The notes below the pieces were generated by a model, which was given only the letters and a program-made list of their open reading frames with translations, ran no database searches and had not been told where the DNA came from. A program made the position numbers and the translations under genes. Shown one piece after another: positions 4,601-43,143 of a stretch of 64,000 nt of DNA. Positions within the stretch are counted from its first letter, which is position 1, and the number at the start of each line of letters is the position of its first letter. The stretch is from Dehalococcoidia bacterium (GTDB lineage: Bacteria > Chloroflexota > Dehalococcoidia > GIF9 > UBA5629), in NCBI GenBank assembly GCA_041653995.1, contig JBAZEK010000001.1, positions 1,030,613 through 1,094,612 of the forward strand, given 5' to 3'.

Positions 4601-4940
4601 GCGCTTCACCTATATTCCAAGATGCGGAGACATAGTGTGGATAACCTTAAATCCTCAAGCAGGACATGAACAATCAGGACGCCGCCCCGCCCTGGTAGTT
4701 TCACCTGTTAGTTATAATGATAAGACAGGGTTGGCCGTCCTTTGTCCCATCAGCAGCATTGTCAAGGGCTACCCTTTCGAAGTACTACTTCCAGAAGGAT
4801 CACCAGTGGCGGGGGCAATCTTATCTGACCAGGTAAAAAGCATGGATTGGCGTATTAGAAATGCAGTACTATTATGCACACTGCCTGCCGGAAATATCTC
4901 TGAGGTGCTCTTAAAACTGAACACCTTGTTATCACACTAA
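4557..4940 (+). CDS. mazF: MazF/PemK-family endoribonuclease toxin
   Basis: 'YIPRCGDIVWITLNPQAGHEQSGRRPALVVS...LAVLCPISS' is typical of MazF/PemK. Start is uncertain: ATG 4557 overlaps mazE by 44 nt. Confidence 0.8.
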   Translation: MRRILAPPQVTKHGKRFTYIPRCGDIVWITLNPQAGHEQSGRRPALVVSPVSYNDKTGLAVLCPISSIVKGYPFEVLLPEGSPVAGAILSDQVKSMDWRIRNAVLLCTLPAGNISEVLLKLNTLLSH

Positions 4941-22053: not shown

Positions 22054-23361
22054 TTACTCAGGCGTAATCTCAGAGATATAGGAAACGCCGGCAACAGCAC
22101 GTTTGATGCGGGTTGTATCCAGAAGGTGACGCATATCCACAAACTCACCGGCGCGCGCGATCCTTCTGATTTCTCCGTCCAGATCCAGGGCATAATCCCA
22201 CTGCATATTTTCAAAGACCACACCGTGGTTATGCAGCAGCATCATCTTCTTATCGCCGACATTGGCCGGGTGCATATAGAACGCGTTCTCCAGTGCTGAT
22301 TTCGACAGGTGGGACAGGTCGGCCGTCAGGTCCAGCCCCAGTCCGAAGCTGATCATGGTCCGGCCGGGCAGCTTCGGCTCCAGATTAATGTCCATCCATT
22401 TCTCTATATTTTCAGGATCCGTAATCAGTCCTTTGTTGGCCGGGGCGTGTTTTTTGATGGGGGAGATTTTGACGCCGGAGCTGAAAAGCACGTCCAGGTC
22501 GGCTATCATGGCCACGCTCACCAGGCCACGATTAATCACCTGCCGCTCCCGGGCTATATCGAAAACGGCTTCGTACAGCTCGCTGAGGGTAATCGCTTTG
22601 CTGCCAGCGTCGTCACCTACCAGCATGATATCGTTAAATTCACCATGCAAAGCCAGATTGAGACCGGTGTGGATCATGACCTCGCCTGTATCTTTTTGAG
22701 GGATGAGAAAATCGGGTGTGTCGTTTCCGTCGGTGGGCAGCCAGACCATGGTGCCTCCGCTGGTCATCATTTCGCCCAGCAGCGGCAGGCAGTCTTCAAG
22801 GCTACCGCCCAACGCCCCCAGGCCGATGGAATACTCCGCCTCGGAGAAACGCCTCTGCCGTATATCGCCTGATTCCAGGGTGGCATTCATTACTTTGCTC
22901 AGATCGCCCACGGTCTTCAGAGTGGCGGGGCGATCGGTAACGTGGAAGACGTGAAAGCTGGTATCCTTTCTGTGGTAACAGGGAAGGCTTCCCCAGTCCT
23001 TTTCGGAGCGTCTCATATCCTTCAGCATGGAGCTGTGGTTGACGGCTTCGTCCACCGTAGAATAGGTGGGGAACATGCCTTCCATACCCGCCATCTTCAA
23101 GACCTGGGCCGGGTATTCCGTAATTCCACACAGGGAGAGATGCCCTTTTCTGCCGGCCAGTTTTTTATGTATGGAGAGAAGGAGCCTGATGCCCCCGCTG
23201 CTCAAATACAGCGCGCCGGACATATCGAGCACCAGATAGTGATCGTCCTCCGTTACAAGGAACTCAAGCTCTTTGCCCAGGCCGGCGGCCTCAAAGGCGC
23301 CCAGCCTGCCCTCCAGAGCCACCACCAGGATGCCGTTTCTGCGTTCCGATTTAATGCTCAC
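22054..23361 (-). CDS. STAS-domain protein fused to a ~320-aa unrecognised C-terminal domain
   Basis: N-terminal ~105 aa look like an anti-sigma-factor antagonist ('ILVVALEGRLGAFEAAGLGKEL...LVLDMSGALYLSSGGIRLLLS'). I do not recognise the remainder. Confidence 0.7.
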   Translation of the reverse strand: MSIKSERRNGILVVALEGRLGAFEAAGLGKELEFLVTEDDHYLVLDMSGALYLSSGGIRLLLSIHKKLAGRKGHLSLCGITEYPAQVLKMAGMEGMFPTYSTVDEAVNHSSMLKDMRRSEKDWGSLPCYHRKDTSFHVFHVTDRPATLKTVGDLSKVMNATLESGDIRQRRFSEAEYSIGLGALGGSLEDCLPLLGEMMTSGGTMVWLPTDGNDTPDFLIPQKDTGEVMIHTGLNLALHGEFNDIMLVGDDAGSKAITLSELYEAVFDIARERQVINRGLVSVAMIADLDVLFSSGVKISPIKKHAPANKGLITDPENIEKWMDINLEPKLPGRTMISFGLGLDLTADLSHLSKSALENAFYMHPANVGDKKMMLLHNHGVVFENMQWDYALDLDGEIRRIARAGEFVDMRHLLDTTRIKRAVAGVSYISEITPE

Positions 23362-23502
23362 AACGATTCAATTTAATTAATAAGCCGGAGTATGTCAACA
23401 GACAGCAGTCCGAATAAAGACGGTACACAACCGGTAATACACTTGACAGAATGTATAGTATGCTTTACAATTAGTATAATAAACTATATAGGAGACGTTG
23501 TA

Positions 23503-23883
23503 ATGCAAGTAAGCAGATTCCGAGTCTACAGGGCGATTATAGCCGCCGGGCTGGCCGTTGCCGTGGCGATTGCGATCGCCACCGATATCCCCTTAATCGC
23601 GCTGGTCGCGGTTGTCGTTGCTATCGCGCTTGCCATAGTTCTGGAACGCCGCAACAAAGAGATCGTGCGGGATGAGCGGATCCAGCAGATCGGCGGGAGG
23701 GCCGCCACTGCATCTTTCAACAGCGTGATTATACTGGCGGCTGTGGCCGCGCTGGGCGCTGCCCTTTTCCGCAATCAATTGCCTGAAAATATTGTATTCG
23801 TCGGCAACATCATGGGCTATTTCGTCTGCATCGCCATAATACTGCACCTGTGCTTTTACGCATATTTCAGCCGCAAGCTTTAG
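23503..23883 (+). CDS. multi-pass membrane protein (DUF2178-like)
   Basis: ATG 23503 after AGGAGA. 4 TM helices. Followed 9 nt later by a short XRE gene; paralogous organisation to 3099..3919. Confidence 0.55.
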   Translation: MQVSRFRVYRAIIAAGLAVAVAIAIATDIPLIALVAVVVAIALAIVLERRNKEIVRDERIQQIGGRAATASFNSVIILAAVAALGAALFRNQLPENIVFVGNIMGYFVCIAIILHLCFYAYFSRKL

Positions 23884-23892
23884 GGTGTAAAT

Positions 23893-24129
23893 ATGAAAAA
23901 CAGGTTAAAGGTATTCCGGGCCATGCACGACCTCACACAGGAGGCGCTGGCCGATCGATTGCGCGTGACCAGGCAGACGGTCATATCCATCGAAAACGGC
24001 AAATACGACCCTTCCCTGCCGCTTGCCTTCCGTATCGCCAATCTTTTTAACGTGAAAATCGAGGACGTCTTCTTCTACGAAGGTGGTCCGGGTGAGTTCC
24101 ACGGCTATCCACCCAGGTCTGAAAAATGA
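23893..24129 (+). CDS. XRE-family HTH regulator (short, YozG-like)
   Basis: 'LTQEALADRLRVTRQTVISIENGKYDPSLPLAFRIANLF'. Confidence 0.85.
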   Translation: MKNRLKVFRAMHDLTQEALADRLRVTRQTVISIENGKYDPSLPLAFRIANLFNVKIEDVFFYEGGPGEFHGYPPRSEK

Positions 24130-24148
24130 AGCCGCCGCAAAGAAGCAG

Positions 24149-24538
24149 TCATGCCTTCCCAAAAGCGCCCTGGAGTATCAGTAGAGCCGAAATTGTAAAA
24201 ATAACCGGACAAAGTCTATATGGAATAAAATCGATTTGGGCGCCTGTAAACAGCGACAGCACTGCCATCGCTATCAGCATGACCGCTGCTGATACAAACA
24301 CAACTTTCCGTGATTTCAGATTACTGTAGTTGAGTGCTGCAACGAGAATTACCAACCCTCCCAGGAATAAGAGCGTCAGGCCTTCATTTATCCATTCCAT
24401 CAAAACTATTCTTGTATTGTCGACTGAAATGGCGCCGAATCCATCGACAACCGAATCAGTGGGAATCAAGTGAGCAATACCCCATAAGATACACAGTGCG
24501 CCACCGATTATAACCAATACTTTCCTGGCCATCTTCAC
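24149..24538 (-). CDS. small integral membrane protein (4 TM)
   Basis: 129-aa hydrophobic ORF, convergent with the XRE gene. Confidence 0.5.
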   Translation of the reverse strand: MKMARKVLVIIGGALCILWGIAHLIPTDSVVDGFGAISVDNTRIVLMEWINEGLTLLFLGGLVILVAALNYSNLKSRKVVFVSAAVMLIAMAVLSLFTGAQIDFIPYRLCPVIFTISALLILQGAFGKA

Positions 24539-24642
24539 ACTCCTTCAATTTGTTACCGCACCATCCAGTTCAGGCAGCTGCCCAATCAATTACAATAGTA
24601 TCCCATCCGACCTCCCATAGTCATCACGCCATTTTCATTTCA

Positions 24643-24666
24643 GTAATCTCACGACTGTTTCTTAAA
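24643..24666. repeat. 24-nt direct repeat, left copy, flanking TA cassette
   Basis: 'gtaatctcacgactgtttcttaaa' recurs at 25312-25335 with 1 mismatch. Confidence 0.8.
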
Positions 24667-24701
24667 TATGGTATGATAATATGTAATACCAGGAGGTCAT
24701 A

Positions 24702-24944
24702 ATGGGCAAGGAAAAGATAGCGATCACTATTGATGGGCAGCTTGTCAGCGAACTTGACGGGCTGGTGGGTAAAAACGTCTTTCAGAGCCGCAGCCAGGCT
24801 ATTCAGGAAGCTGTCCATGAAAAACTTATGCGAATCAGAAAGACCCGCCTGGCGGAAGAGTGCGCCAAACTTAATCCTTCATTTGAAAGAGCCCTCTCCG
24901 AGGACGGATTTGAAGGGGATATTAAACAGTGGCCGGAATACTGA
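24702..24944 (+). CDS. ribbon-helix-helix (CopG/MazE-like) antitoxin
   Basis: 'KIAITIDGQLVSELDGLV...SRSQAIQEAVHEKL' RHH pattern. AGGAGG upstream. Overlaps the toxin ORF by 16 nt. Confidence 0.75.
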   Translation: MGKEKIAITIDGQLVSELDGLVGKNVFQSRSQAIQEAVHEKLMRIRKTRLAEECAKLNPSFERALSEDGFEGDIKQWPEY

Positions 24945-25264
24945 GGGGAGAGATCCGCTGGGCGGACTTAAGCCCAACTCGGGGACATGAACAAACGGGT
25001 TTGCGCCCCGTGCTCGTTGTCAGTCACGACGTTTTCAATGAACGCTCGGGCACCGCTATTGTAGTCGCAATCACGAGTCAGCTGCAGCAGGCTGGTTTTC
25101 CACTTGTCCTGGAGTTGAAAACGGGAGGCCTTCCCAAGCGTTCATGGGCAAAAATCAGCCAGATCAGGACCGTTTCAACTGAAAGGCTGGGCAATAAAGT
25201 CGGTAGATTATCCCACGAAGAGCTGGCAAAAATCATCGATGGTCTGAACGAAATCGTTGCATAA
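24929..25264 (+). CDS. MazF/PemK-family toxin
   Basis: 'RGEIRWADLSPTRGHEQTGLRPVLVVSHDVFN...AIVVAITS'. GTG start. Confidence 0.8.
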   Translation: MAGILRGEIRWADLSPTRGHEQTGLRPVLVVSHDVFNERSGTAIVVAITSQLQQAGFPLVLELKTGGLPKRSWAKISQIRTVSTERLGNKVGRLSHEELAKIIDGLNEIVA

Positions 25265-25311
25265 ATATACGCCGGGCAGCTTCGAGAAAAACATACTGCA
25301 TTATTATTTAG

Positions 25312-25335
25312 GTAATCTCACGACTGCTTCTTAAA
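25312..25335. repeat. 24-nt direct repeat, right copy
   Basis: 'gtaatctcacgactgcttcttaaa', 23/24 identical to 24643-24666. Confidence 0.8.
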
Positions 25336-25368
25336 CAGGCATGCAACCTGCATCACCAACCTGCCGGG

Positions 25369-25397
25369 TTGAATTCACCGGTCACTGGTGATAGTAT
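25369..25397 (+). promoter_or_regulatory. candidate promoter TTGAAT-17 nt-TAGTAT
   Basis: Hexamers at 25369-25374 and 25392-25397. The spacer contains the small inverted repeat tcacc...ggtga. Confidence 0.4.
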
Positions 25398-25430
25398 TTC
25401 CAACATAATACGCATAAAGGAGGACTATTG

Positions 25431-25484
25431 ATGCTTGCCATTTTAATAACTGCGGATATTACATCCCTTGAGGTTTCAGGCTAG
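25431..25484 (+). CDS. 17-aa mini-ORF (MLAILITADITSLEVSG)
   Basis: AAAGGAGG lies 6 nt upstream of the ATG. Bracketed by the candidate promoter and an intrinsic terminator. No homology claim. Confidence 0.3.
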   Translation: MLAILITADITSLEVSG

Positions 25485-25517
25485 ATACCATATCATCGTT
25501 TAACCGATAGATTGCCG

Positions 25518-25543
25518 GTCGTTCCGCAGGGAACGGCTTTTTT
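25518..25543 (+). terminator. intrinsic terminator
   Basis: Stem cgttcc/ggaacg (extendable) with loop gcag, followed by TTTTTT at 25538-25543. Confidence 0.6.
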
Positions 25544-25654
25544 GTTCTTCTCCTGATCAGGAAGTAAGGCTTAATTACGCACGGGGTGTGAGTCCGTGGA
25601 TTATTCGACATTGAATAATGTCCTGATTAACTTACTTTCGAAAAGGAGCAAGAA

Positions 25655-26764
25655 TTGAATATAGCTTCAAACCATTCACGAACACCCAACCTCCAGGATA
25701 TAGGGTGGAATTCGTTTTTTCAGAAGAGCTACCGGGCGTTGCAAATCCCGGACACCATGCCTGCCAGAGTCATCACCGAACTCAAGGATGCTTTTCAGGT
25801 TTACACTGAATGCGGGGAATTGACTGCCGCGGTTTCAGGCAGGATGAGACACTTCGCTGAAAGTGAAGAACGATATCCGGCCGTCGGCGACTGGGTTGTC
25901 ATCAAACGGCTGAATAACGAACGGAAAGCGGTAATCCATGCCGTACTGCCGAGAAAGAGCAAATTCTCCAGGAAAGTTGCCGGGGAACGTACCGAAGAGC
26001 AGATTGTCTCGGCTAACATAGACACCGTTTTCATTGTCAGCGCTATGGACGGCGGCAGGAACTTCAATCTCCGGCGGATTGAGCGATATCTCACACTTGC
26101 CTGGAGCAGCGGCGCCACCCCGGTAGTTGTCCTCAATAAAGTCGACCTGTGCACGGATATCGATACGCCCGTTCACGAAGTCGAGACTGTCGCTCCGGGC
26201 ATATCCATTCACCCGGTCAGCGCCCGTGAGAAAATCGGTCTGGATGCGCTCACAGCTTACCTGGGAAGAGGAAAAACGACTGCTTTTCTGGGCTCCTCGG
26301 GCGTGGGCAAATCCGCACTGATCAATGCGCTGCTCGGCGTGGAGAGACAGAAGACGGGAGAGGTCCGGGGAGACGACCGCATGGGCAGGCACACCACGAC
26401 CAGACGCGAACTGATCATCCTTCCCGGCGGCGGCATGGTGATTGATACGCCGGGTATGAGGGAAATCCAGATGTGGGCCGGAGAAGAGGACCTGCAGGCG
26501 GCATTTCAAGATATCGAGATGCTGGCCGGACAATGCCGCTTCAGCGATTGCAGTCACAACACGGAATCCGGCTGCGCCGTAAAAGCAGCAATCGCCAGGG
26601 GCGCTCTTGACCCATCCAGGCTGGAGAGCTTCAGGAAACTGCAGAGGGAAATAGATTACCTTGCATACAGGGAAGAGCATGGTACACGCCTGTACGAAAA
26701 GCTCAGATGGAAGAAAGTAGCTAAGCTGGTGAAAGAAATAAAGCATAATCCCAAGAATCGTTAA
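25655..26764 (+). CDS. rsgA: ribosome small-subunit-dependent GTPase A
   Basis: Circularly permuted GTPase: 'VVLNKVDL' (G4) precedes 'GSSGVGKSALINAL' (G1). C-terminal zinc knuckle 'CRFSDCSHNTESGCAV'. TTG start after AAGGAG. Confidence 0.9.
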   Translation: MNIASNHSRTPNLQDIGWNSFFQKSYRALQIPDTMPARVITELKDAFQVYTECGELTAAVSGRMRHFAESEERYPAVGDWVVIKRLNNERKAVIHAVLPRKSKFSRKVAGERTEEQIVSANIDTVFIVSAMDGGRNFNLRRIERYLTLAWSSGATPVVVLNKVDLCTDIDTPVHEVETVAPGISIHPVSAREKIGLDALTAYLGRGKTTAFLGSSGVGKSALINALLGVERQKTGEVRGDDRMGRHTTTRRELIILPGGGMVIDTPGMREIQMWAGEEDLQAAFQDIEMLAGQCRFSDCSHNTESGCAVKAAIARGALDPSRLESFRKLQREIDYLAYREEHGTRLYEKLRWKKVAKLVKEIKHNPKNR

Positions 26765-26831
26765 CCGGCTGCAGACGTTTGAACCAATAGTCTCCCTCGC
26801 ATCATTCTTGATCGCAGGGGGGCTATCAGTT

Positions 26832-26871
26832 TTGACCATTTGATTAATAATTGCTACAGTTATTGATATCA
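26832..26871 (+). promoter_or_regulatory. candidate promoter (TTGACC-17-TACAGT) overlapped by an AT-rich inverted repeat (possible Fur/PerR box)
   Basis: 'tgattaataattg' (26841-53) and 'cagttattgatatca' (26857-71) are imperfect inverted copies, directly upstream of the Fur-family gene. Confidence 0.35.
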
Positions 26872-26886
26872 GGATGTATTACTAAT

Positions 26887-29545
<2,659 letters not shown>

Positions 29546-31841: not shown

Positions 31842-32057
31842 ATGACTGAAAACAAGGTCAAGGAAATTAGATTGAGCAAATGCATGAATCAGAGAGAACT
31901 GGCAGAGAGAGCTCATATCTGTCAAACAGCTATTTCAGACATTGAAAGGGGGGTAAGACTACCATGGAAAGCAGCGTCTGAAAAGCTTGCTATTGCATTG
32001 GGTGTCACAATCGAGGAATTATTCCCAAACAATCTTAGGGGAGGTAAAAATTGCTAA
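31842..32057 (+). CDS. Cro/CI-type XRE HTH regulator
   Basis: ATG 31842 after GGAGG. 'MNQRELAERAHICQTAISDIERGVRLP'. Divergent from xis-int. Confidence 0.75.
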   Translation: MTENKVKEIRLSKCMNQRELAERAHICQTAISDIERGVRLPWKAASEKLAIALGVTIEELFPNNLRGGKNC

Positions 32058-32398
32058 ACAAAAATAGAACGTCTTTAAAGCTGGGAAACAAGAAAGTAGG
32101 CTACTTTGAAGGTGATAAATTCATCAAACCCGTAATCGGCTCAAAGCATCTGCTGAAATTTCCTTACCAAGCTTGGGCAATTGATGCCAAAGTATTTGAC
32201 GATGAAATTAAACCTAACGCCAATTATTTTATTGTAAGAGATAGGGAGTCGGGGCTTGAATATAGTTGTACGGTAAAGGACTTCGACAATTTAAAGCGAA
32301 CCATTAACAGAGGGTATGGTAAGCAGTACAGTCTATCTCTAAAACATTGGAAAATAGCAGCTATGGAAGACGCTGAAGCTTCCAGTAACGCAACATAG
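32051..32398 (+). CDS. hypothetical protein
   Basis: 115-aa ORF with TTG start after GGAGG, overlapping the cro-like stop by 7 nt. No recognisable motifs. Confidence 0.5.
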   Translation: MLNKNRTSLKLGNKKVGYFEGDKFIKPVIGSKHLLKFPYQAWAIDAKVFDDEIKPNANYFIVRDRESGLEYSCTVKDFDNLKRTINRGYGKQYSLSLKHWKIAAMEDAEASSNAT

Positions 32399-32579
32399 AG
32401 TAGTGCAGCACCCGTTTTAGTAGTTGGAGGTGCTGTGTAAAAATGGTATTAGACAGAAGGAAAAGGCTGATGGAGGAGGGTATGACTCGCCATGATATTT
32501 CAGGAGCCTACTTATTTAATCAATTCAAGTGAGTTGTAATAGATGGTCATACCTATTCGATGGTCTTAAGGAGGAAAAT

Positions 32580-33026
32580 ATGATTCAGGGCATAGAAAAT
32601 TATATAAATTTAACAGATACCAAGAATGAATGGGCAAAATTTCTAAATGGCTTTGAATGGCATTGGTTCTTTACTCTCACATTTGATAAAAAGGTAAGTG
32701 ATGACTTGGCATACAAGCAATTCTTTAGGTGGAAGAATTGGATAAAGAGTTCAGTAGGACACAGAATTTTCTATCTAATTATTCCTGAGCGTCCCAAGTA
32801 TAAGGGAGATAATACTCATATTCATGGATTTCTTAATGGTGTTGAAAATGAGAAACCCTACATATGGAGAAGGAAATGGGAGGCAATGGCAGGCTTTTCT
32901 CGGATTCAACCCTATGATAGTTCAAGGGGTGCAAGCTATTATCTAGCGGATAAAATTGTATTTAAAGAAGAGGATATTTATCATAGCAAAGACCTAAATA
33001 TGATAAAGATAAATACACTCAATTAA
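32580..33026 (+). CDS. HUH-superfamily rolling-circle replication initiator (Rep)-like protein
   Basis: ATG 32580 after AAGGAGG. Motif I 'FFTLTF', motif II 'THIHGFL' (HUH), motif III 'YYLADK'. Confidence 0.55.
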   Translation: MIQGIENYINLTDTKNEWAKFLNGFEWHWFFTLTFDKKVSDDLAYKQFFRWKNWIKSSVGHRIFYLIIPERPKYKGDNTHIHGFLNGVENEKPYIWRRKWEAMAGFSRIQPYDSSRGASYYLADKIVFKEEDIYHSKDLNMIKINTLN

Positions 33027-33117
33027 ATCCATTATATATATCAATATGATTATTACTACAAACATCAATATTTATTTCTTTTACTTTTACTTTTCCTTAT
33101 GCCCCTTTTTTATTTTT

Positions 33118-33172
33118 GCCCCAAATATGAATTAAATATAAATATCTACAATTAATTGCATAAAATTGGGGC
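33118..33172. other. hairpin (7-bp GC-rich stem, 41-nt AT-rich loop): candidate replication origin
   Basis: gccccaa (33118-24) pairs with ttggggc (33166-72). The loop holds 'taaatataaatatctacaa' (33133-51), which recurs at 34198-34216. Confidence 0.35.
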
Positions 33173-33231
33173 ATAGGGAAAAAATCACATATAAAATTCA
33201 AATAGAAAGTCAGGAGGAATCAGTAAGTAAA

Positions 33232-33858
33232 ATGAGTACAATAATTTCAAAACCTACGACAATTCAAATTAGCATGCTTGGGACACATGCCTTTTGTGAA
33301 TATAGGATATATCTTGAGCTTGTTATGGGTTTTAAAGCACGAGGTACACCAGAAATGCTTGAAGGCACAAAAGCACACTCAAGGATAAATACGATGGCTT
33401 TCTTAACGAGAGATTCAAATATTAGCATTGAGGATGCGTTGCTCCAAGCAGAGTCAGACGGAAGAGAAATAACAAAAAGGAACGTACGGGTAACAGGTAA
33501 GATACTACGTGGGAATATCGATGAAATTCACATTGGGCCAAAAGAAATTACGATTATAGATGATAAAAAATGGGCAGAGCATTATCCATCATATAAAAAT
33601 CAAGTCTTTGGCTATTGCCTTGCGTTTAAAGAACAATACAACCCAAAGCAGCCGATATACGGTGCCATAAAGAATTATCAGTCTGGAAAGGAAGTCTGGA
33701 AAAAACAATTTTCAGTTTTGGAAGAGGAATATATAAACGGCATTGTTCAAAGAATACTGGGGATAATTCGTGAGGATATCACTCCAAAACCCATTGGTGT
33801 TAGAGAAGTATGCTGGCAATGTGGATTTAAAAATTACTGCAATGTAAGGACACGATAG
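33232..33858 (+). CDS. Cas4-like PD-(D/E)XK nuclease with 4-Cys cluster
   Basis: N-terminal Cys 'HAFCEYRIYLE', 'IDEIH', 'IIDDKK', 'NQVFGY' (QxxxY), C-terminal 'CWQCGFKNYC' (C-x2-C-x5-C). AGGAGG upstream of ATG 33232. Confidence 0.6.
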   Translation: MSTIISKPTTIQISMLGTHAFCEYRIYLELVMGFKARGTPEMLEGTKAHSRINTMAFLTRDSNISIEDALLQAESDGREITKRNVRVTGKILRGNIDEIHIGPKEITIIDDKKWAEHYPSYKNQVFGYCLAFKEQYNPKQPIYGAIKNYQSGKEVWKKQFSVLEEEYINGIVQRILGIIREDITPKPIGVREVCWQCGFKNYCNVRTR

Positions 33859-33895
33859 CAAAATGGTGGAAAAAGGAAAAAGAAGAAACTAACTA

Positions 33896-34159
33896 CTATA
33901 CTGCCTTGAAACCCACAATAAAGTAATTTGATTTATCAAATATAAGTCTTATCTTGTGTTCTGAATTATCCTTGCCGGCCAGGGCAATTAAGAATGATAG
34001 CTTCTTTGGATTAGTAACTGTCTTAGAAATTGGACGATGGACAATAAAACCCTCAAGTTCAATCTTCACATATCTACAGCCAGTCTTCGGATATGGCAAA
34101 TCCTTCTCTTCCACAATATCTATATATTTGCATATGGCTGAATTTGTCCTTCTTGGCAT
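33896..34159 (-). CDS. hypothetical protein
   Basis: 87-aa ORF on the opposite strand, with purine-rich SD (AAGGGAAGAAAGGAA) upstream of the ATG. Confidence 0.4.
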   Translation of the reverse strand: MPRRTNSAICKYIDIVEEKDLPYPKTGCRYVKIELEGFIVHRPISKTVTNPKKLSFLIALAGKDNSEHKIRLIFDKSNYFIVGFKAV

Positions 34160-34503
34160 ATTTATTTCCTTTCTTCCCTTTTCCGCTAAATTTAAACTAA
34201 ATATAAATATCTACAAATTATTATATTAAATCCACAACCAAATTTGAATATGAATGCCACAGATAAATGGCGGAAAAGAAAAAGAGTCTTAGAGATATTA
34301 TTATTTTGTATTATTTTCTTTAATAGTCAGATAGCAAGTGTGGCTAAGGGCAATTTTACCTTTAAAAATATTGAATCTGGTTGTCATTTGTCTAGTGCTT
34401 TAAAAATAGAAAACCTTCACGTGTGAGAAATGCCAGTAGCACGTGTATTAGAAGCGGCATTTTAAATAAAATCTTAGCCCAAAGTCATAGCAAATATAGA
34501 TTG

Positions 34504-34532
34504 TTGCATGCGTCCTTTTAATACGATAGAAT
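34504..34532 (+). promoter_or_regulatory. promoter TTGCAT-17 nt-TAGAAT (copy A)
   Basis: Both hexamers and the spacing are conserved in the duplicated unit at 40413-40441. Confidence 0.5.
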
Positions 34533-34558
34533 ACGGTCAATGTAGTGAGGCTGGGGAG

Positions 34559-36502
34559 ATGAAATATTTACTTGCTTGTTTCATAGCACTATTCGTTATA
34601 TCAGCCTGTGCATCTCAAGTCCATGTTGGTGACCAAGCTCCAAACTTCACACTGACAGATATAAATGGTAAACGTATTAGTCTGCAAGATTTTCGTGGCA
34701 AGCAGGTTGTTCTTTATCTTTGGTTTTTATATTGTCCTGAATGTACAGAAGACCTTGCTGAGATTCAAGAGTTGAATAATAATAGTGACGAAAGAGTCAT
34801 TAAGTTCCTAACCATTAACCCAGAAAATTCATCAAAAGACGTTGCGGATTTTTTCACTAAAAATGGATATAGTTTCCCAGTTTTGTTTGATTTAGATGGA
34901 AGTATTTACAAGCAATATAATTTACGACCTCGGTCTGCACCCTACACAATAATTATTGCTCCTGATGGAAAGATTAACAATATTACAGTGGGGAATCTTC
35001 ATTATCAAGGTGGTTTAAAACGGTTAATTGGAGATAACGTAACATCCTTCAGTCCAAGTGCACAAACTCAAAAGACTCCAATAATTATCGTACCCAGTTT
35101 ACAATCTCATGGTGTCGATGAACTTGCTTATGTATCTAGCGAAACGAACACGAACTCTATATATGTCGTGAATGCAAACGGGGAATATATTGCTAACTCA
35201 TCTGGAAAAATGGATGCATTATACCATGTTAGTTGGTCGCCAAACGGAGATAAGATTATTTTTGAAGTGGTTAAAGATATCAATATAGACCAGAGAAATA
35301 TGACCCTTATTTCTTCGTCTGATATTTATTCTCTTGATATTAAAGACCATGAAGAGCGTAGACTTACTTCAAATTATCCGTATAGCAATTGTTCTCCCAC
35401 ATGGATTGAAGACGATAAAATCGTATTTTATTCAACAAGGGGAAGTTCGTATGGCAGTTTTTTACAAAATATATACATCATGAACGCAGACGGAAGTAAT
35501 CAGATAAATTTAACTAATTGTGCAGAGAATGTACCTATGGTATTAGAACCAATATTATCGCCTGACCACTTGTCTGCAGCATATATTACGGGTAAGTTAT
35601 TCGATGAAGATATATATGTGATAAACCTAGTGAATGGAAATAAATTTGAAATAGGCCATAATCCAACATTTGCACCCTGGACTTGGTGGTCTCCAAACAG
35701 TAAACAGATAGCGTATATATCTGCCTCTCTAAACGGGGGGCCTGAATCATTTTATCTCTACGATGTCGAAAAACAGAAACCGATAAAATACTATGATAGC
35801 CCTCAATCTTATTCTATTATGGAAATAGCATGGTCGCCAGACAGTAACAAAGTCGCTATTTTTGAAAAACCGCAGAGCTTGTATGTTTTAGATTGTCTGA
35901 GTTCCAAGTTTACAAAACTTGATGGGATATGTGACTGGGTAGTAGAGATGAAATGGATACCTAATAACCAACAAATAGCCATTATTGGTGACAGGTTTAC
36001 AAACAGAAACTTGTATGTAATTGATATTGGTGAGCAGAGTAAGCATAAAATCAATCCAGAGGGAACGGCAGTCGAGTCGTATCGATGGTCAACTGATAAT
36101 ACAAGAATCATTTATTGCTTAGATGATGGATATCTTTACACAACTTTCCTACCCAACTTAAATACCATAAAACTAATGCAACTTAATAAAAATACGATAA
36201 AAGGGTTAGCTTTGTCACCAGACGGTTTATTAATCGCTGTTGCTCTGAGTGACGATACTCTAACTGTAATTTCATTAAACAATAACAAGGTGTGCTTGTT
36301 AACTAATGATTATTACAATATTGGAGCAATTTCTTGGTCGCAAAACAGTAACATACTTGCATTTGAATACGGAACTTTATGGGATAGTCCGTTTGTATGC
36401 AGTAACATTCAAATCATCAATTTCGAAAACGAGGAACAGTTCATTAAATTAGATAAACCAATCTCAGGACGCTCTCCAATTTGGGCGAGAAAGGAAAAAT
36501 AA
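34559..36502 (+). CDS. lipoprotein: TlpA/ResA-like thioredoxin domain (CPEC) fused to TolB-like beta-propeller
   Basis: Signal 'MKYLLACFIALFVISAC'. 'VGDQAPNFTLTDINGKRISLQDFRGKQVVLYLWFLYCPEC'. Then >=8 PD40-like blades ('SWSPNGDKIIFE', 'WWSPNSKQIAYIS', 'AWSPDSNKVAIF', 'ALSPDGLLIAVA'). Confidence 0.75.
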   Translation: MKYLLACFIALFVISACASQVHVGDQAPNFTLTDINGKRISLQDFRGKQVVLYLWFLYCPECTEDLAEIQELNNNSDERVIKFLTINPENSSKDVADFFTKNGYSFPVLFDLDGSIYKQYNLRPRSAPYTIIIAPDGKINNITVGNLHYQGGLKRLIGDNVTSFSPSAQTQKTPIIIVPSLQSHGVDELAYVSSETNTNSIYVVNANGEYIANSSGKMDALYHVSWSPNGDKIIFEVVKDINIDQRNMTLISSSDIYSLDIKDHEERRLTSNYPYSNCSPTWIEDDKIVFYSTRGSSYGSFLQNIYIMNADGSNQINLTNCAENVPMVLEPILSPDHLSAAYITGKLFDEDIYVINLVNGNKFEIGHNPTFAPWTWWSPNSKQIAYISASLNGGPESFYLYDVEKQKPIKYYDSPQSYSIMEIAWSPDSNKVAIFEKPQSLYVLDCLSSKFTKLDGICDWVVEMKWIPNNQQIAIIGDRFTNRNLYVIDIGEQSKHKINPEGTAVESYRWSTDNTRIIYCLDDGYLYTTFLPNLNTIKLMQLNKNTIKGLALSPDGLLIAVALSDDTLTVISLNNNKVCLLTNDYYNIGAISWSQNSNILAFEYGTLWDSPFVCSNIQIINFENEEQFIKLDKPISGRSPIWARKEK

Positions 36503-36527
36503 GAAATTTCAAAAATGGAGACTGAAT

Positions 36528-36824
36528 ATGACTGGCGAATTGGGAAATTTTGTTATCGTCATGGGATTACCCTGTTTAGGAGCGCTGTTAATAGCTTTTT
36601 GTTCATTACCAACCGATAAATGGACAATAAAACACACTTTTATGTTGGTGGGAACTTCACTAATTTTTATTAGCTTTATTTTGCAAGCATATCAGATTAT
36701 TGATAAATACCCTGATAAAAATGAATATATATTTGGATGGTGGATTGTCGGTTTAGCTACCGTTATCATGGCTATAATAGGGCAAATTATTAGAATCAGA
36801 TACGGTAAAAGTTGGTTCCAATAG
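36528..36824 (+). CDS. small membrane protein (3 TM)
   Basis: 98-aa hydrophobic ORF, 26 nt after the upstream stop. Confidence 0.5.
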   Translation: MTGELGNFVIVMGLPCLGALLIAFCSLPTDKWTIKHTFMLVGTSLIFISFILQAYQIIDKYPDKNEYIFGWWIVGLATVIMAIIGQIIRIRYGKSWFQ

Positions 36825-36920
36825 GATAATAAAATAGTGGGAAAGGAAAGAGAAGGAAATTTAATTAGCTATCTATATTTAAGATAAGAGTGACTTATAG
36901 AACTTCATTGAGGTTGGGAG

Positions 36921-37451
36921 ATGCAACAACAGTATCAATGCCCTAATTGTAGGTATCCAGTTGCTTATGGGAATAATTTCTGTGGACATTGTAGACAACA
37001 ACTAATCTGGCAACAATTAATGCCACCTTCACCACCAGTACACCATCAGCAAACACCACAAGGCATTATTGGGAAATCACACGAGCAAAACACTTCTGGA
37101 CAAGGTGGTCAATCAATAATACCCGATGAAAAGCGTATTAAACTTCCAAAACTCAATATTCGTTTCGACTTTGAGTTGTTTCAAGCAATTGAGGACAATG
37201 ACCGTAAACTGGCTGAACAGCTCAAAGCAAAATATGGGGATGATGTTTATAATTCCAATTTTTATAACCTGCTTAGTATCGAAGACGCTAACTCAGTAGA
37301 CTCACTTCATCTTAAACTAGTATCAGTTGAAAAAATGAATTTCAATGATATTTTATGCGAAAGTATCAAAATAGAGACTGAAAAAGTACGCAAAAGGATA
37401 GAGGAGCTTGAGAATATAAAAAATTTACGCAACGGGATTGAGGAAGTGTAA
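36921..37451 (+). CDS. zinc-ribbon protein with Pro-rich linker and helical C-terminus
   Basis: 'MQQQYQCPNCRYPVAYGNNFCGHCRQQLIW'. Head is homologous to the host ORFs at 57880(-) and 58107(+). No TM helix. Confidence 0.65.
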   Translation: MQQQYQCPNCRYPVAYGNNFCGHCRQQLIWQQLMPPSPPVHHQQTPQGIIGKSHEQNTSGQGGQSIIPDEKRIKLPKLNIRFDFELFQAIEDNDRKLAEQLKAKYGDDVYNSNFYNLLSIEDANSVDSLHLKLVSVEKMNFNDILCESIKIETEKVRKRIEELENIKNLRNGIEEV

Positions 37452-37511
37452 GGAACTGACTAAACCCCTGAAACTGGCAGCTCGAGTAAGAAAAATGGCG
37501 GGAAAGAAAAT

Positions 37512-39368
37512 TTGATTTATATGTTATGGGATGATACGTATCGTAAAGATGCAGCGGAGTATGAAATCTATCTGCGTATGCATCATAAAGAAAAAAACGA
37601 TTACGAGAAGCTTTTATCTAATCTTGAACGTGAGTGGTCAGAAAAATCAGTTAAAGAAGAAAACTACATATCGCTTAAAAAGGAATACACAGCGAAACTA
37701 CAGGAAACAAAGAAGTACATTTCAAAGCTGAAATTCCAGATTACAGCACTCATTAAAAAATGTAATAAAGACATAGATAAAATCGATAGCCAAATTGAAC
37801 AAATTAAATTGCGGCACAAAGTTGGTGAATATTCAGAGGAGAAACTCAAAGAACTATTATCACCATCTGAAACAGAAAGAAGGCAATTTGAATCCTTAAT
37901 AATCGAACTGAAACGCATACATGGCTTGAAATATATACCTAAACCAACTACCGATGATGTTGTATCAGAAACAGAACCGAGTCAGCCTAGAAGGTCTCCT
38001 ATCCCAACGTCATCTACTTCTATTTCAACAGCTGAAGAGCAAGCCCCCGAAATATCAGCACCAATGAGTTTTGAAGAACCGCCTCCTATTTTGGTACCTG
38101 CTGTATTTAAAAAGTCTTCACCTGTAAGAGTAAAGAAGAGTCTGTGGATTATGGCTTCGATTACTATGTTTGTAATATTAATTCTCTGTTTTGTTATTTG
38201 GAATATAGAAGTGCATAAAAAGGTAATCCCTCAGATTGGAGACCAAGCTCCAAACTTCTCTCTCCCAGATATGAATGGTAAAACGGTTAACCTTCAGGAC
38301 TTTCACGGAAAGGGTGTTGTTCTTTACCTTTGGGACACATCATGTCCTTACTGCAAAAATGACCTTAGCTGGATAAATGAATTAAATGGCTGCACCTATG
38401 ACGAAGCAATAATATTTTTAACTATTAATATCTCAGATTCACGTGGAACAGCTATTAAATATTTTGAGGAAAATGGATATAGTATTCCCGTTTTAAATGA
38501 TATGCGTGGGACGGTTATTAAGCAGTATGTAAAGTACACCTTAGGCCATACGTATCCAGATACTATTCTTATTGGTTCAAATGGCCAGATTCGTAATGTA
38601 AAAGTCGGGCCCTTCCAAAGCAAGACTGAATTAAAAACATTTATAGAATCAGGTTTAACCCCCCGTTGGGATAATACTCCTCCACAAATTTATGATATTA
38701 ATCTTTCTAAGGCCTCTATTTTGAGTTGGAAAACGGATGAGGAAACACATAGTAATATACAAGGGTTTCGTAATAGTGTCGGAGGTGCTGGAGTCACTCT
38801 TGGTGAAAATTGGACAAGATATCATAGCGTAAATGAAACAGTTTGCACTAATGGCTACTATGACCAAATTCAAATCAACTCGTATGACCGCTGCGGTAAT
38901 TCTGCTTCAAAAGTTTTTACACTGCCCAACTGCATAAATTTAGGTTGTAGAGCTCCTGATTTCACAGCAACTTCAACTAATAATCAGGATATAACGCTGT
39001 CCGCAGTACCTAGCAAAATGACTCTACTTCACTTCTGGCTACTCGGATGTGGTGCATGTGAAAAGGAACTTCCATTAATCCAAAAACTATATTATGAGCG
39101 TCCTAGAGAAGAACTTGAGATATTGGCTGTGAATGTTAGAGGTGACATATACAGCATAAATGACTTCGTTACTGCAAATGGTTATAGATTAATTATTTTA
39201 CTAGATACAGAAGGCATAATAGATGCCGCCTATCATAATCCAAGGTTCCCCACAACCTTTTTATTGGATTGCAATAAGGTAATTATTAACAAGCATGACG
39301 GTGCCTTTCAAAATTATGAAGAAATCGTTGATTTTGTAGGTCAGTATCCAAAACTTCCTGGTAAATAG
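37512..39368 (+). CDS. coiled-coil / TM / thioredoxin (CPYC) / Fn3-like / thioredoxin (CGAC) protein
   Basis: 618 aa. TM 'LWIMASITMFVILILCFVIW'. 'IGDQAPNFSLPDMNGKTVNLQDFHGKGVVLYLWDTSCPYC', 'ILSWKTDEETHS', 'CRAPDFTATS...LLHFWLLGCGAC'. Start uncertain (TTG 37512, ATG 37521, or frameshifted ATG 37495). Confidence 0.7.
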   Translation: MIYMLWDDTYRKDAAEYEIYLRMHHKEKNDYEKLLSNLEREWSEKSVKEENYISLKKEYTAKLQETKKYISKLKFQITALIKKCNKDIDKIDSQIEQIKLRHKVGEYSEEKLKELLSPSETERRQFESLIIELKRIHGLKYIPKPTTDDVVSETEPSQPRRSPIPTSSTSISTAEEQAPEISAPMSFEEPPPILVPAVFKKSSPVRVKKSLWIMASITMFVILILCFVIWNIEVHKKVIPQIGDQAPNFSLPDMNGKTVNLQDFHGKGVVLYLWDTSCPYCKNDLSWINELNGCTYDEAIIFLTINISDSRGTAIKYFEENGYSIPVLNDMRGTVIKQYVKYTLGHTYPDTILIGSNGQIRNVKVGPFQSKTELKTFIESGLTPRWDNTPPQIYDINLSKASILSWKTDEETHSNIQGFRNSVGGAGVTLGENWTRYHSVNETVCTNGYYDQIQINSYDRCGNSASKVFTLPNCINLGCRAPDFTATSTNNQDITLSAVPSKMTLLHFWLLGCGACEKELPLIQKLYYERPREELEILAVNVRGDIYSINDFVTANGYRLIILLDTEGIIDAAYHNPRFPTTFLLDCNKVIINKHDGAFQNYEEIVDFVGQYPKLPGK

Positions 39369-39441
39369 ATAATTTCTTGATATTAAGAAATCGAGGTGTA
39401 CTGGTCTGAACCCCTGAAACTGGACAGCTTGAGTAAGAAAA

Positions 39442-39951
39442 ATGGCGGAAAAAGAAATGCAACAGGAGGAGCATCCCCTAAATATGGGGAAGCTACTTGT
39501 GAATTTCCAATCACTTGAGATAGCTCTCCGTCTATTTCTTTATAATGATGAAATTGCCTCTAGAGTTTCATCTCCTCAGGCGGTAAACCTAAATGCTATG
39601 AATGCGGGGGATATAGTAGCTGAAAATGCGTTCACAAACTATGATAGTCTAAGTCAACTCATTGATAAATATAATAACCATCCCAACATCATATCGACAG
39701 GTCTAACCATTGATAAGACTTTAGTGGACATACGTGATGCAATAGCTCATGGAAGAGTCGCTGGAGTCACTCCTTTGCTTGTGCCTCCTTTAAAACTAAT
39801 GAAGTTTGATAAACCAAAGAACAAAAGTGTGAAAGTAACATTTAGCGTTTTATTGACAAGGGAATGGTTCATTCTAGAGATGGCTAAGGTTCAAGATGCA
39901 GTTTTTAAAGTCTTTCAAGCTATCCAAATAATACAGAGTGCTAAGACATAA
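39442..39951 (+). CDS. hypothetical protein with RxxxxH (HEPN-like) motif
   Basis: 169 aa, predicted helical. 'VDIRDAIAHGRV' matches the Rx4-6H HEPN signature. Motif-level evidence only. Confidence 0.45.
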   Translation: MAEKEMQQEEHPLNMGKLLVNFQSLEIALRLFLYNDEIASRVSSPQAVNLNAMNAGDIVAENAFTNYDSLSQLIDKYNNHPNIISTGLTIDKTLVDIRDAIAHGRVAGVTPLLVPPLKLMKFDKPKNKSVKVTFSVLLTREWFILEMAKVQDAVFKVFQAIQIIQSAKT

Positions 39952-40412
39952 GTGGTGCCCTCTGAAATCGCTCTGAGGGGCTGAAATCAGGGTGTTGCAT
40001 ATTGAACATGACGGATTCCACCTGTCATTACTATTCCAGCTTAATTAGAGCCTTTAAAGTATTAAACAGTAAAGGTAATAACTCTACTTCCTTTCCCTTA
40101 AGCCCCTTTATTATTTCTTCGCCTAAGTTTCCGTTCAAGTGAATTATGTCGCTTTTAAGACCAACAAACGCTGGTACACCATAAACACGTTTACGTTCAA
40201 GCCAATTATGTCGTTTTGCATATATTATTTCCAGCTTAAATTAACTACAGAAAAATGGGGCAAAAAGAGAAAAAGGGGAATTATATATCAATTTATTGTC
40301 AATAATCTTTGAAATACTATTACTTCATCTGAGAGAGATGCCAGCAGCTAAGTGTAACGGCATTGAATTTTAAATAACTTCTCAGCCCAAAGTGGTAACG
40401 CATATAGGTCTA

Positions 40413-40441
40413 TTGCATAAGTATTGTTCATATAATAGAAT
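40413..40441 (+). promoter_or_regulatory. promoter TTGCAT-17 nt-TAGAAT (copy B)
   Basis: Same hexamers and spacing as 34504-34532. Followed by an identical 5' UTR and signal-peptide coding sequence. Confidence 0.5.
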
Positions 40442-40467
40442 ACGGTCAATGTAGTGAGGCTGGGGAG

Positions 40468-41880: not shown

Positions 41881-41907
41881 AAGAAAATCAAAAGGGAGGT
41901 AAAGAAG

Positions 41908-42084
41908 ATGGTAGCAAATAAGAAGAAGTATTATGCAGGGGAATCAGCTAAAGTCTCTGGCAAATACAACGAATGCAGATTGGGCACAGGCAAAACAGGA
42001 GTAACAGCAAATGTCAAGAAGGGGGATACACTCCCACCACATAAAATAGGAGCTCATTGGGAGTTATCAAGAAAATCTAAATAA
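41908..42084 (+). CDS. small YjzC-like protein (58 aa)
   Basis: Not in the track (<60 aa). AAGGGAGG lies 8 nt upstream. 'GESAKVSGKYNE...VKKGDTLPPHKIGAHWEL' resembles the YjzC family pattern (from memory). Confidence 0.5.
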   Translation: MVANKKKYYAGESAKVSGKYNECRLGTGKTGVTANVKKGDTLPPHKIGAHWELSRKSK

Positions 42085-42316
42085 TATAGACATATTTAAG
42101 AAAGTGGTGACTTATAAAACTTCATGCTGTCCTGAAAGCTGAATGACCGAGTATATCTTTGCACCATAATAAAGTTCAGCCAAGGCACCGTTAAAATGTA
42201 CTACAGAATTGTTCTAAAGGGCCAAAATGGGGTATATAATATAGGGCATGACAGATTCTTCCTGCCTGAGCTTTTCAAGCTTAATTATTGAACAAATAAC
42301 TATGAAATCCTGATTG

Positions 42317-43081: not shown

Positions 43082-43143
43082 TTCTTTTGTGAACTTTTTG
43101 TAGCTAACTTGTGAATATTGTGAAATTGAGCTGTAGTTTTCTT

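What the first reader, a model, noticed from the sequence alone, without database searches (positions are those of the whole stretch)
24643..25335. RHH-MazF toxin-antitoxin cassette bracketed by a 24-nt direct repeat
'gtaatctcacgactgtttcttaaa' (24643-66) and 'gtaatctcacgactgcttcttaaa' (25312-35) are 23/24 identical and flank exactly the two-gene TA module (24702..25264). The left copy supplies a -35-like 'acgact' for the TA promoter (-10 'gataat'), while the right copy has no -10 after it. This looks like duplication of a target or att sequence created when the 0.65-kb cassette inserted. The TA pair would then be a minimal mobile unit with no recombinase of its own.
Basis: seen in the sequence. 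Interest (0 to 1): 0.5.

Follow-up and report, generated by a model that had tools for sequence, protein, structure and literature searches.

The report
Toxin-antitoxin cassette bracketed by duplicated DNA
A small two-gene toxin-antitoxin unit in an uncultured Dehalococcoidia genome sits between two copies of a unique 37-base sequence, probably a scar of how it was inserted, which matters because nobody knows how such units enter genomes.

Summary
The 24-mer occurs only twice in the window (23/24 identical, 0 expected by chance). It is the core of a 37-nt direct repeat (32/37 identical; 24630-24666 and 25299-25335) bracketing an RHH-MazF pair. Homology to the closest cassette relatives in other contexts always runs 24668/71-25264/68, so the left repeat abuts the cassette and the repeat never travels with it. 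Flanking homology to related genomes stops at ~24616 and resumes at ~25346, and the interval between differs in every relative. There are no inverted ends, attC features or adjacent recombinase. Other members of this TA family are bracketed by unrelated repeats of 31-218 nt. One of these is a duplicated 3' end of the neighbouring cysK gene, an unambiguous target duplication. [quoted passage not shown] Caveats: no empty site was found, the enrichment over ordinary genes is marginal (6/57 vs 2/92, p=0.054), and the duplication may predate arrival at this site.

The parts
24539..24616 (-). Left backbone: conserved upstream region of the 127-aa membrane-protein gene (mem127, 24149-24532, minus strand). 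Homology to every mem127-bearing relative ends here.
   Evidence: blastn homology to L106, L107, L108, L109, L110 and L112 ends at window 24614-24619.
24630..24666 (+). Left copy of the 37-nt direct repeat.
   Evidence: It ends 1-4 nt before the start of cassette homology to L116, L118 and L026.
24667..24701 (+). 5' control region of the cassette. It holds a conserved operator-like palindrome overlapping the -10 (GGTATGATAATATGTAATACC, 24670-24690) and a Shine-Dalgarno AGGAGG (24691-24696).
   Evidence: This stretch is conserved nearly unchanged upstream of all TA relatives, including those with only ~47% antitoxin identity. Binding by the antitoxin is inferred, not tested.
24702..24944 (+). 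Antitoxin gene (80 aa) with a probable ribbon-helix-helix N-terminus.
   Evidence: Pfam RHH_1 E 0.002, below its cut-off. NikR RHH domain E 2.8e-5. Always paired with the MazF gene in 80 related loci.
24929..25264 (+). MazF/PemK endoribonuclease toxin gene (111 aa). It overlaps the antitoxin gene by 16 nt.
   Evidence: Pfam PemK_toxin 8.6e-32. PDB EndoA/YdcE 9e-20.
25265..25298 (+). 34-nt segment between the end of cassette homology and the right repeat copy. Its origin is unknown. It probably came in with the insert.
   Evidence: Homologous neither to cassette relatives nor to the backbone.
25299..25335 (+). Right copy of the 37-nt direct repeat (24-nt core at 25312-25335).
25346..25654 (+). 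Right backbone: the conserved rsgA leader. It contains a promoter-like TTGAAT (25369-74), a 17-nt spacer and TAGTAT (25392-97), then a 17-codon ORF (25431-25484), a terminator (25517-25545) and a second hairpin, followed by rsgA (25655-26764).
   Evidence: blastn homology to L019 starts at 25346, and to L012, L013, L017 and L021 at 25367-25369. Terminator called. The small ORF is conserved in L021.

Best explanation
A promoter-to-stop RHH-MazF cassette of about 0.6 kb (24667-25298) was inserted into intergenic DNA. The process duplicated about 37 nt of the recipient sequence, leaving one copy on each side. No cassette-encoded or adjacent recombinase was involved. This is the architecture called 'insertion with long target duplication', described so far for restriction-modification units.

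Shown: the repeat, its uniqueness in the data available, the cassette boundaries, the variable slot, and the recurrence of bracketing in this TA family.

Inferred:
- The repeat was a single copy before insertion.
- The two joints were made by host repair or replication at staggered positions on the target (illegitimate or microhomology-mediated joining).
- The toxin's addictive property then protected the insert from loss while the two copies diverged to 86% identity.
- The repeats could later allow excision or amplification by recombination between them.

Whether the duplication arose at this site or at an earlier one is open.
For: - The repeat is unique and far above chance.
- The left copy ends at 24666, and DNA homology to three independent cassette relatives starts at 24668-24671 and ends at 25264-25268. 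None of them has the repeat, so it is not part of the cassette.
- Backbone homology stops at ~24616 and resumes at ~25346, and the interval holds different genes in every relative, including a different TA pair in L019 and L110.
- No terminal inverted repeats, attC core sites or hairpins, and no neighbouring recombinase.
- Family members are bracketed by unrelated repeats: L039 218 nt (209/218), L074 121 nt, L101 107 nt, L034 52 nt, L103 46 nt. The downstream copy always starts 2-36 nt after the mazF stop.
- In L039 the repeat is the 3' end of the adjacent cysteine-synthase gene: a 69-codon fragment plus the intact gene. That can only be a duplication of target DNA.
- Bracketing frequency is 6/57 TA loci against 0/592 arbitrary segments.
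- The 21-nt core is absent from 185,579 species-representative genomes and from the JGI metagenome collection, so it is not a widespread motif.
- The right copy resembles a motif in the native mem127 flank of L106 and L107 (14-25 of 500 shuffles reach the score).
- Literature: long, variable target duplications without mobility genes are documented for RM units (PMC2853133, PMC3874152).
Against: - No empty site with one copy was found, and the source species shows no polymorphism.
- Both copies lie in DNA that aligns neither to the backbone of relatives nor to the cassette.
- Relatives L106, L107 and L110 share ~65 nt next to the mem127 promoter that the window largely lacks, so this site was also otherwise rearranged.
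- The nativeness signal is marginal, and the reconstructed empty site aligns better only to L106.
- Against real genes in the same contigs the enrichment is only 6/57 vs 2/92 (Fisher p=0.054).
- Three of the bracketed family cases (L027, L029, L031) are explained by a dispersed element, not by a unique target.
- 14% divergence between the copies means the event is old, or the copies came from different sources.
- The rest of the source genome could not be searched for more copies.
Confidence: 0.5

Rival explanations
1. Site-specific integration by a recombinase acting in trans. The 37-mer would be the att core shared by a circular cassette and the chromosome. The cassette would be a non-autonomous element, or the last remnant of a larger integrative element kept by toxin addiction.
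For: Direct repeats of 20-200 nt are typical of integrase-mediated insertion, and in L039 the duplicated sequence is a gene 3' end, a classic integrase target. A tyrosine recombinase gene exists in the window at 42317-43081.
Against: That recombinase lies 17 kb away inside a separate Rep/Cas4-containing element, with no copy of the repeat near it. Across the family, repeat sequences, lengths and distances to the genes all vary, and there is no shared cassette-end motif. Close cassette relatives lack the 37-mer, so no attP-like copy travels with the cassette.
Confidence: 0.13
2. Homology-driven (Campbell-type) integration or allelic transfer. A DNA circle or fragment from a related donor carried the TA pair plus a stretch homologous to this intergenic region. 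It recombined with the resident copy, so one repeat copy is of donor origin and the other of recipient origin.
For: The two copies differ at 5 of 37 positions although all strains are otherwise near-identical. Family repeats are also 73-96% identical rather than identical. L118 shows recombination-type tandem amplification of a cassette plus 200 nt of flank.
Against: It needs a donor that already had the cassette at the homologous site, so it does not explain the first insertion. No relative has this cassette at this exact junction. L026 has it after the HTH gene, without mem127 or the repeat.
Confidence: 0.12
3. The repeat has nothing to do with the insertion. Either the cassette landed by chance between two existing copies of a short repeated sequence, or a local duplication arose later (a tandem duplication followed by deletion).
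For: This class was recognised for RM units (PMC2853133). It applies to L027, L029 and L031, where the bracketing repeats are copies of a dispersed ~100-nt element also present at window 4086-4189. 2 of 92 ordinary genes in these contigs are also bracketed.
Against: The 37-mer is not a copy of that element. It has no other copy in the window, in any fetched locus or in the two large collections. The left copy abuts the cassette boundary within 1-4 nt, which chance placement does not predict.
Confidence: 0.15
4. The two copies are functional regulatory sites, for example extra operators for the antitoxin-toxin complex or sites for the neighbouring XRE-type regulator. They would couple the TA promoter to the promoter of the rsgA leader 34 nt downstream of the right copy.
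For: Both copies lie just upstream of promoter-like sequences. The repeat begins with GTAAT, which also occurs in the conserved operator-like palindrome at 24670-24690.
Against: The element conserved across all TA relatives is the palindrome at the -10, not the 24-mer. The 24-mer is not palindromic and has no internal repeat. It is absent from the mem127 and rsgA upstream regions of all relatives. Bracketing repeats in other family members are unrelated in sequence.
Confidence: 0.05

Closest known systems
Insertion with long target duplication of restriction-modification gene units (Nobusato et al. 2000, Gene 259:99; Furuta, Abe & Kobayashi 2010, PMC2853133)
   Same: A compact addiction-type gene unit without mobility genes, bracketed by a direct repeat longer than 30 bp. 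The repeat is unique local sequence, and its length and sequence vary from case to case (46-bp examples in H. influenzae; 'in the order of 100 bp' per PMC3874152). Tandem amplification through such repeats is known for RM units and is seen here for a TA relative (L118).
   Different: The cargo is a type II toxin-antitoxin pair whose toxin is an RNase, not a DNA-cutting enzyme. Furuta et al. suggested that DNA double-strand breakage by the RM enzymes underlies the process, and that cannot apply here. The defining empty-site comparison is missing for this locus. My literature searches found no report of this insertion mode for TA pairs, but they cover open-access papers only.
B. subtilis EndoA/EndoAI (YdcE/YdcD) and B. 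anthracis MoxXT: MazF toxins with RHH antitoxins
   Same: A MazF-fold toxin (best PDB match EndoA, 9e-20) preceded by a small overlapping antitoxin gene with an RHH-like N-terminus, and a palindromic sequence over the promoter.
   Different: Only distantly related in sequence. The antitoxin's RHH assignment is below the curated thresholds. Activity, cleavage specificity and autoregulation are untested.
Integron gene cassettes carrying TA pairs (chromosomal integrons)
   Same: Small promoter-proximal TA cassettes separated by repeated sequences in variable arrays. Relatives of this cassette sit in arrays of same-strand ~100-nt repeats (L029, L033).
   Different: No attC structure or core sites, no hairpin potential and no intI gene. 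The window's repeat is unique rather than a family of attC sites. The dispersed element has no conserved secondary structure.
IS/MITE-type transposition with target-site duplication
   Same: An insert flanked by a direct duplication of target DNA.
   Different: The duplication is 37 nt here and 31-218 nt in relatives, not a fixed 2-14 nt. There are no terminal inverted repeats (best 6 nt, equal to shuffles) and no transposase.

Membership tests
Type II toxin-antitoxin, MazF/PemK toxin with RHH antitoxin | Toxin with MazF/PemK (SH3-like barrel) domain | tested here: met
   Pfam PF02452 E 8.6e-32, 110 bits against a cut-off of 23.1. PDB EndoA/YdcE 9e-20.
Type II toxin-antitoxin, MazF/PemK toxin with RHH antitoxin | Small upstream antitoxin gene, overlapping or abutting the toxin gene, with an RHH DNA-binding N-terminus | tested here: inconclusive
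   Gene order and the 16-nt overlap are met, and the pairing is conserved in 80 loci. The RHH fold has only sub-threshold matches: Pfam RHH_1 18.4 bits against 20.5, and NikR RHH domain E 2.8e-5. No structure was predicted.
Type II toxin-antitoxin, MazF/PemK toxin with RHH antitoxin | Autoregulatory operator (inverted repeat) in the operon promoter | tested here: inconclusive
   The palindrome-like GGTATGATAATATGTAATACC over the -10 is conserved in all relatives examined. Binding was not tested.
Type II toxin-antitoxin, MazF/PemK toxin with RHH antitoxin | Toxicity of the toxin and its neutralisation by the antitoxin | not testable with these tools
   Requires expression experiments.
Insertion with long target duplication (criteria of Furuta et al. 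2010, PMC2853133) | The insert contains the complete addiction unit, is shorter than 20 kb and has no mobility gene | tested here: met
   The insert is 632 nt (24667-25298) and holds only the two TA genes.
Insertion with long target duplication (criteria of Furuta et al. 2010, PMC2853133) | Flanking direct repeat longer than 30 bp | tested here: met
   37 nt with 32/37 identical; the 24-nt core is 23/24 identical. This only just passes the criterion.
Insertion with long target duplication (criteria of Furuta et al. 2010, PMC2853133) | Both repeat copies align to a single copy at an empty site in a related genome | tested here: inconclusive
   No empty site was found among 11 conspecific contigs or about 20 orthologous loci. 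There is only marginal similarity of the right copy to the native flank of L106 and L107.
Insertion with long target duplication (criteria of Furuta et al. 2010, PMC2853133) | The repeated sequence occurs nowhere else in the genome | tested here: inconclusive
   Only two copies in the 64-kb window, and none in the GTDB representatives or JGI contigs.
Integron gene cassette | attC site: imperfect palindrome with RYYYAAC and GTTRRRY core sites | tested here: not met
   No core-site match in either junction, and ssDNA folding of the repeats is no better than shuffles.
Integron gene cassette | Integron integrase (intI) and attI next to the array | tested here: not met
   The neighbouring genes are STAS, DUF2178, HTH, mem127, rsgA, fur and katG. 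The only tyrosine recombinase is at 42317-43081 in a separate element.
IS/MITE-type transposable element | Terminal inverted repeats and a short target duplication of fixed length | tested here: not met
   The best inverted repeat between the two ends is 6 nt (shuffle mean 6.5, maximum 9). The duplication is 37 nt here and variable across the family.
Integrative element with its own integrase (genomic islet) | Integrase gene inside the repeat-bounded unit | tested here: not met
   Only the two TA genes lie between the repeats.

The most novel reading that the evidence does not exclude
Promoter-to-stop type II TA cassettes are themselves minimal mobile units. They would enter genomes by a recombinase-independent, host-mediated joining process that duplicates tens to hundreds of bases of target DNA. 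The repeats would then support amplification (as in L118) and excision. This would extend to RNase-based addiction modules the 'virus-like life cycle' proposed for restriction-modification units. It would also show that DNA cleavage by the cargo is not required.
Probability: 0.25. Interest if true: 0.75.

Novelty: new variant of a known kind. Interest (0 to 1): 0.5.

Why it matters
[quoted passage not shown] A TA pair bracketed by a long duplication of local DNA, with no recombinase, gives that question a concrete set of junctions to study. Sibling cases exist in the same family, including a duplicated gene end in L039. If the architecture matches the one known for restriction-modification units, the explanation offered there (DNA breakage by the cargo's own enzymes) cannot be general, because MazF cuts RNA. 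That would point to a host repair or replication process that any selfish, loss-resistant cassette can exploit. If not, this is one more chromosomal MazF pair in a variable intergenic slot.

Tried and rejected
1. Empty site: not found.
- Exact look-ups of MazF, mem127 and RsgA returned only filled conspecific contigs.
- Orthologous loci via RsgA (L012-L025) and via mem127 homologues (L106-L115) all had other content in the slot.

2. Dispersed-motif test. The 21-nt core with Y at the variable position had 0 hits in genome contigs and 0 in metagenome contigs. Neither collection contains the source genome, so copies elsewhere in that genome stay untested.

3. The idea that the 37-mers are decayed copies of the ~100-nt 'WTVPELLFESKKLIPxLQQLL' element that flanks the closest TA relatives: rejected.
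- nhmmer profiles (three iterations, plus a search restricted to the junctions) found nothing.
- Pairwise local alignments against shuffles gave only one 11-mer, at a non-equivalent position, in 44 tests.

4. The idea that this element is the 3' end of an extant gene. The protein search found only one 37-aa fragment. It has no conserved RNA or DNA structure on either strand.

5. Rfam on 23000-27000 at E<=1: no family.

7. Plasmid or phage carriage: no tblastn match at 1e-20.

8. L112's 81-aa ORF beside mem127 looked like an antitoxin by size but is a methyltransferase fragment.

9. The first enrichment estimate (6/57 vs 0/592 arbitrary segments) overstated the case. Against real genes it is 6/57 vs 2/92, p=0.054.

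Full report
**1. Observation**

The 24-mer is at 24643-24666, and a 23/24 copy is at 25312-25335. These are the only matches in the window at up to 3 mismatches, and none was expected in shuffles. The repeat is really 37 nt with 32/37 identical, at 24630-24666 and 25299-25335. Its score is 22, against at most 10 for shuffled flanks.

Between the copies lie an 80-aa gene (24702-24944) and a 111-aa gene (24929-25264) that overlap by 16 nt. The second is a MazF/PemK toxin (Pfam 8.6e-32; best solved relative B. subtilis EndoA, 9e-20). The first has an RHH-like N-terminus, but only at sub-threshold scores.

Independent assemblies of the same species from ENA, Logan and JGI show the same structure with identical repeats. 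The source is an uncultured Dehalococcoidia bacterium.

**2. Boundaries**

Two kinds of comparison define what is backbone and what is cassette.

- Backbone, left side. Relatives that share the membrane-protein gene mem127 (83-88% protein identity; L106-L115) align to the window up to 24614-24619 and no further.
- Backbone, right side. Relatives that share rsgA align from 25346 (L019, RsgA 91% identical) or from 25367-25369 (L012, L013, L017, L021). That is the start of a conserved rsgA leader with a promoter-like site, a 17-codon ORF and a terminator.
- Cassette. The closest relatives of the TA pair in other contexts (L116 MazF 86%, L118 83%, L026 80%) align to 24668/71-25264/68.

So the left repeat copy (ending at 24666) abuts the cassette within 1-4 nt. 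The right copy follows the stop codon after 34 nt of unassigned DNA. No relative's cassette carries anything like the repeat. Both copies therefore lie in junction DNA, 24617-24668 and 25265-25345.

**3. The slot**

The interval between mem127 (or the HTH gene) and the rsgA leader differs in every relative.

- L021: nothing but 170 nt.
- L013: a cupin gene and a DUF4118 gene.
- L019: about 4.7 kb, including a different TA pair directly upstream of the leader.
- L110: a permease, DUF4118 and other TA genes.
- L107, L108 and L112: a methyltransferase.
- L113 and L114: a beta-helix protein.
- L106: fur without rsgA.

L026 has a relative of this very cassette straight after the DUF2178-HTH pair. 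The other TA pairs in this slot, and the window's second MazEF pair (4358-4940), are not repeat-bracketed. No empty site with a single repeat copy was found.

**4. Is the repeat native target DNA?**

Beyond the conserved mem127-promoter anchor, L106 and L107/L112 carry TATTA(A/G)GTTA(A)TCT. This resembles the right copy's TATTTAGGTAATCT, with 14-25 of 500 shuffles reaching the score. A reconstructed empty site aligns better than the actual sequence only to L106 (4 of 300 shuffles).

L106, L107 and L110 share about 65 nt there that the window largely lacks, so the site has also been rearranged in other ways. I call this test inconclusive, leaning supportive.

**5. What it is not**

- There are no terminal inverted repeats (best 6 nt, equal to shuffles), no attC core sites and no hairpin potential in the repeats.
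- No Rfam family matches.
- No recombinase lies next to the cassette. The only one in the window (42317-43081) sits in a separate element with a Rep-like gene and a Cas4-like gene.
- The 21-nt core is absent from the species-representative genomes and the JGI contigs.
- The sequence conserved in front of all TA relatives is a palindrome over the -10 (24670-24690), not the 24-mer. That argues against an operator role for the repeat.
Relatives have TTGACT-17-TAAAAT, and the window retains only the -10 side because homology starts at ~24669.

**6. The family pattern**

Among 80 metagenomic loci with relatives of the pair (MazF 69-81% identical), several are bracketed by direct repeats of unrelated sequence:

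| Locus | Repeat | Note |
|---|---|---|
| L039/L042 | 218 nt, 209/218 | duplicated cysK 3' end |
| L074 | 121 nt | |
| L101 | 107 nt | |
| L034 | 52 nt | includes the upstream gene's terminator |
| L103 | 46 nt | |

The downstream copy starts 2-36 nt after the stop, and the upstream copy ends 35-164 nt before the start. The window (37 nt; 35 and 34 nt) fits this series.

In L039 the repeat is the 3' end of the adjacent cysteine-synthase gene, present as a 69-codon fragment on one side and the intact gene on the other. That is a duplication of target DNA by any reading.

L027, L029 and L031 are bracketed by copies of a dispersed ~100-nt element instead. L118 has two tandem cassette copies, 777 nt at 97.6% identity.

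Bracketing at score >=15 occurs in 6/57 TA loci, against 0/592 arbitrary segments. Against real genes in the same contigs it is 6/57 vs 2/92 (odds ratio 5.3, p=0.054). The enrichment is suggestive, not secure.

**7. Explanation**

The best fit is insertion of a promoter-to-stop cassette with a long target duplication. This is known for restriction-modification units, where repeats over 30 bp of unique local sequence, variable in length, flank units that have no mobility genes (PMC2853133, PMC3874152).

That literature attributes the process to DNA breakage by the cargo. A MazF RNase cannot do that, so a host repair or replication route is implied. This step is my inference.

The 14% divergence between the copies suggests an old event or copies of different origin. 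The duplication may also have arisen at an earlier site and been carried here with the cassette. The rivals are integrase in trans, homology-driven integration, coincidental repeats and a regulatory function. They are listed with their evidence, and none is excluded outright.

**8. Novelty and verdict**

The TA pair itself is an ordinary new member of a known family. The bracketing architecture is a known kind of insertion with a new kind of cargo. My searches of open-access literature found it described for RM units but not for TA pairs. A 2020 review calls TA integration mechanisms unelucidated.

My confidence in the target-duplication reading is about 0.5, and interest is 0.5.

Noticed in passing
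window 4086-4189 (+); also L029 (four copies), L033, L026, L012 5336-5438, L013 4902-5005, L017, L106, L107, L118: A dispersed ~100-nt element reads as a relic coding 3' end (...GGAL-WTVPELLFESKKLIPxLQQLLxxG-stop). Variation is highest at third codon positions, there is no conserved structure, and no parent protein exists in the database. It lies at the boundaries of variable gene cassettes, always on the same strand within a locus. It sits directly upstream of the closest relatives of this TA pair and flanks them on both sides in L027, L029 and L031. It may mark a lineage-specific cassette-array system.
   Followed up: partly
window 4358-4940 (+), with 3099-3919 (-): A second TA pair in the window: a MazE/AbrB-type antitoxin (4358-4600) and a MazF (4557-4940). 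It lies about 190 nt downstream of the dispersed element and next to an HTH plus membrane-protein gene pair that resembles the DUF2178+HTH pair beside the focal cassette. It is not repeat-bracketed.
   Followed up: partly
window 25346-25654 (+): A conserved leader upstream of rsgA: promoter-like TTGAAT-17-TAGTAT (25369-25397), a Shine-Dalgarno site plus a 17-codon ORF (25431-25484, MLAILITADITSLEVSG), an intrinsic terminator (25517-25545) and a second hairpin. It is conserved at the DNA level in seven related genomes, and the peptide is conserved in L021. It could be an attenuator or a small-protein gene. No Rfam family matches.
   Followed up: partly
window ~32000-43100: A probable small integrated element with a Rep ORF2/G2P-like protein (32529-33026), a Cas4/PD-(D/E)XK nuclease (33166-33858) and a tyrosine recombinase (42317-43081, minus strand). 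Its ends were not mapped.
   Followed up: no
L019 4999-5576; L110 695-1272: In the two relatives with the most similar rsgA or mem127 genes, the same slot holds a different two-gene pair: an AbrB/MazE-type 105-aa gene plus an unassigned 86-aa gene. In L019 it sits directly upstream of the rsgA leader, and L110 also has a separate PemK-like gene. The slot looks like a hotspot for TA cassettes.
   Followed up: partly
L118 3725-5367: Two tandem copies of an RHH-MazF cassette plus about 200 nt of downstream flank (777 nt at 97.6% identity). A DDE transposase fragment and an MmeI-type RM gene are nearby. This is an example of cassette amplification.
   Followed up: partly
window 36921, 44587, 45645, 46633, 56282 (-), 58107: Several proteins share a zinc-ribbon-like N-terminus (MQQ.Y.CP.C...), suggesting a lineage-specific paralogous family.
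   Followed up: no
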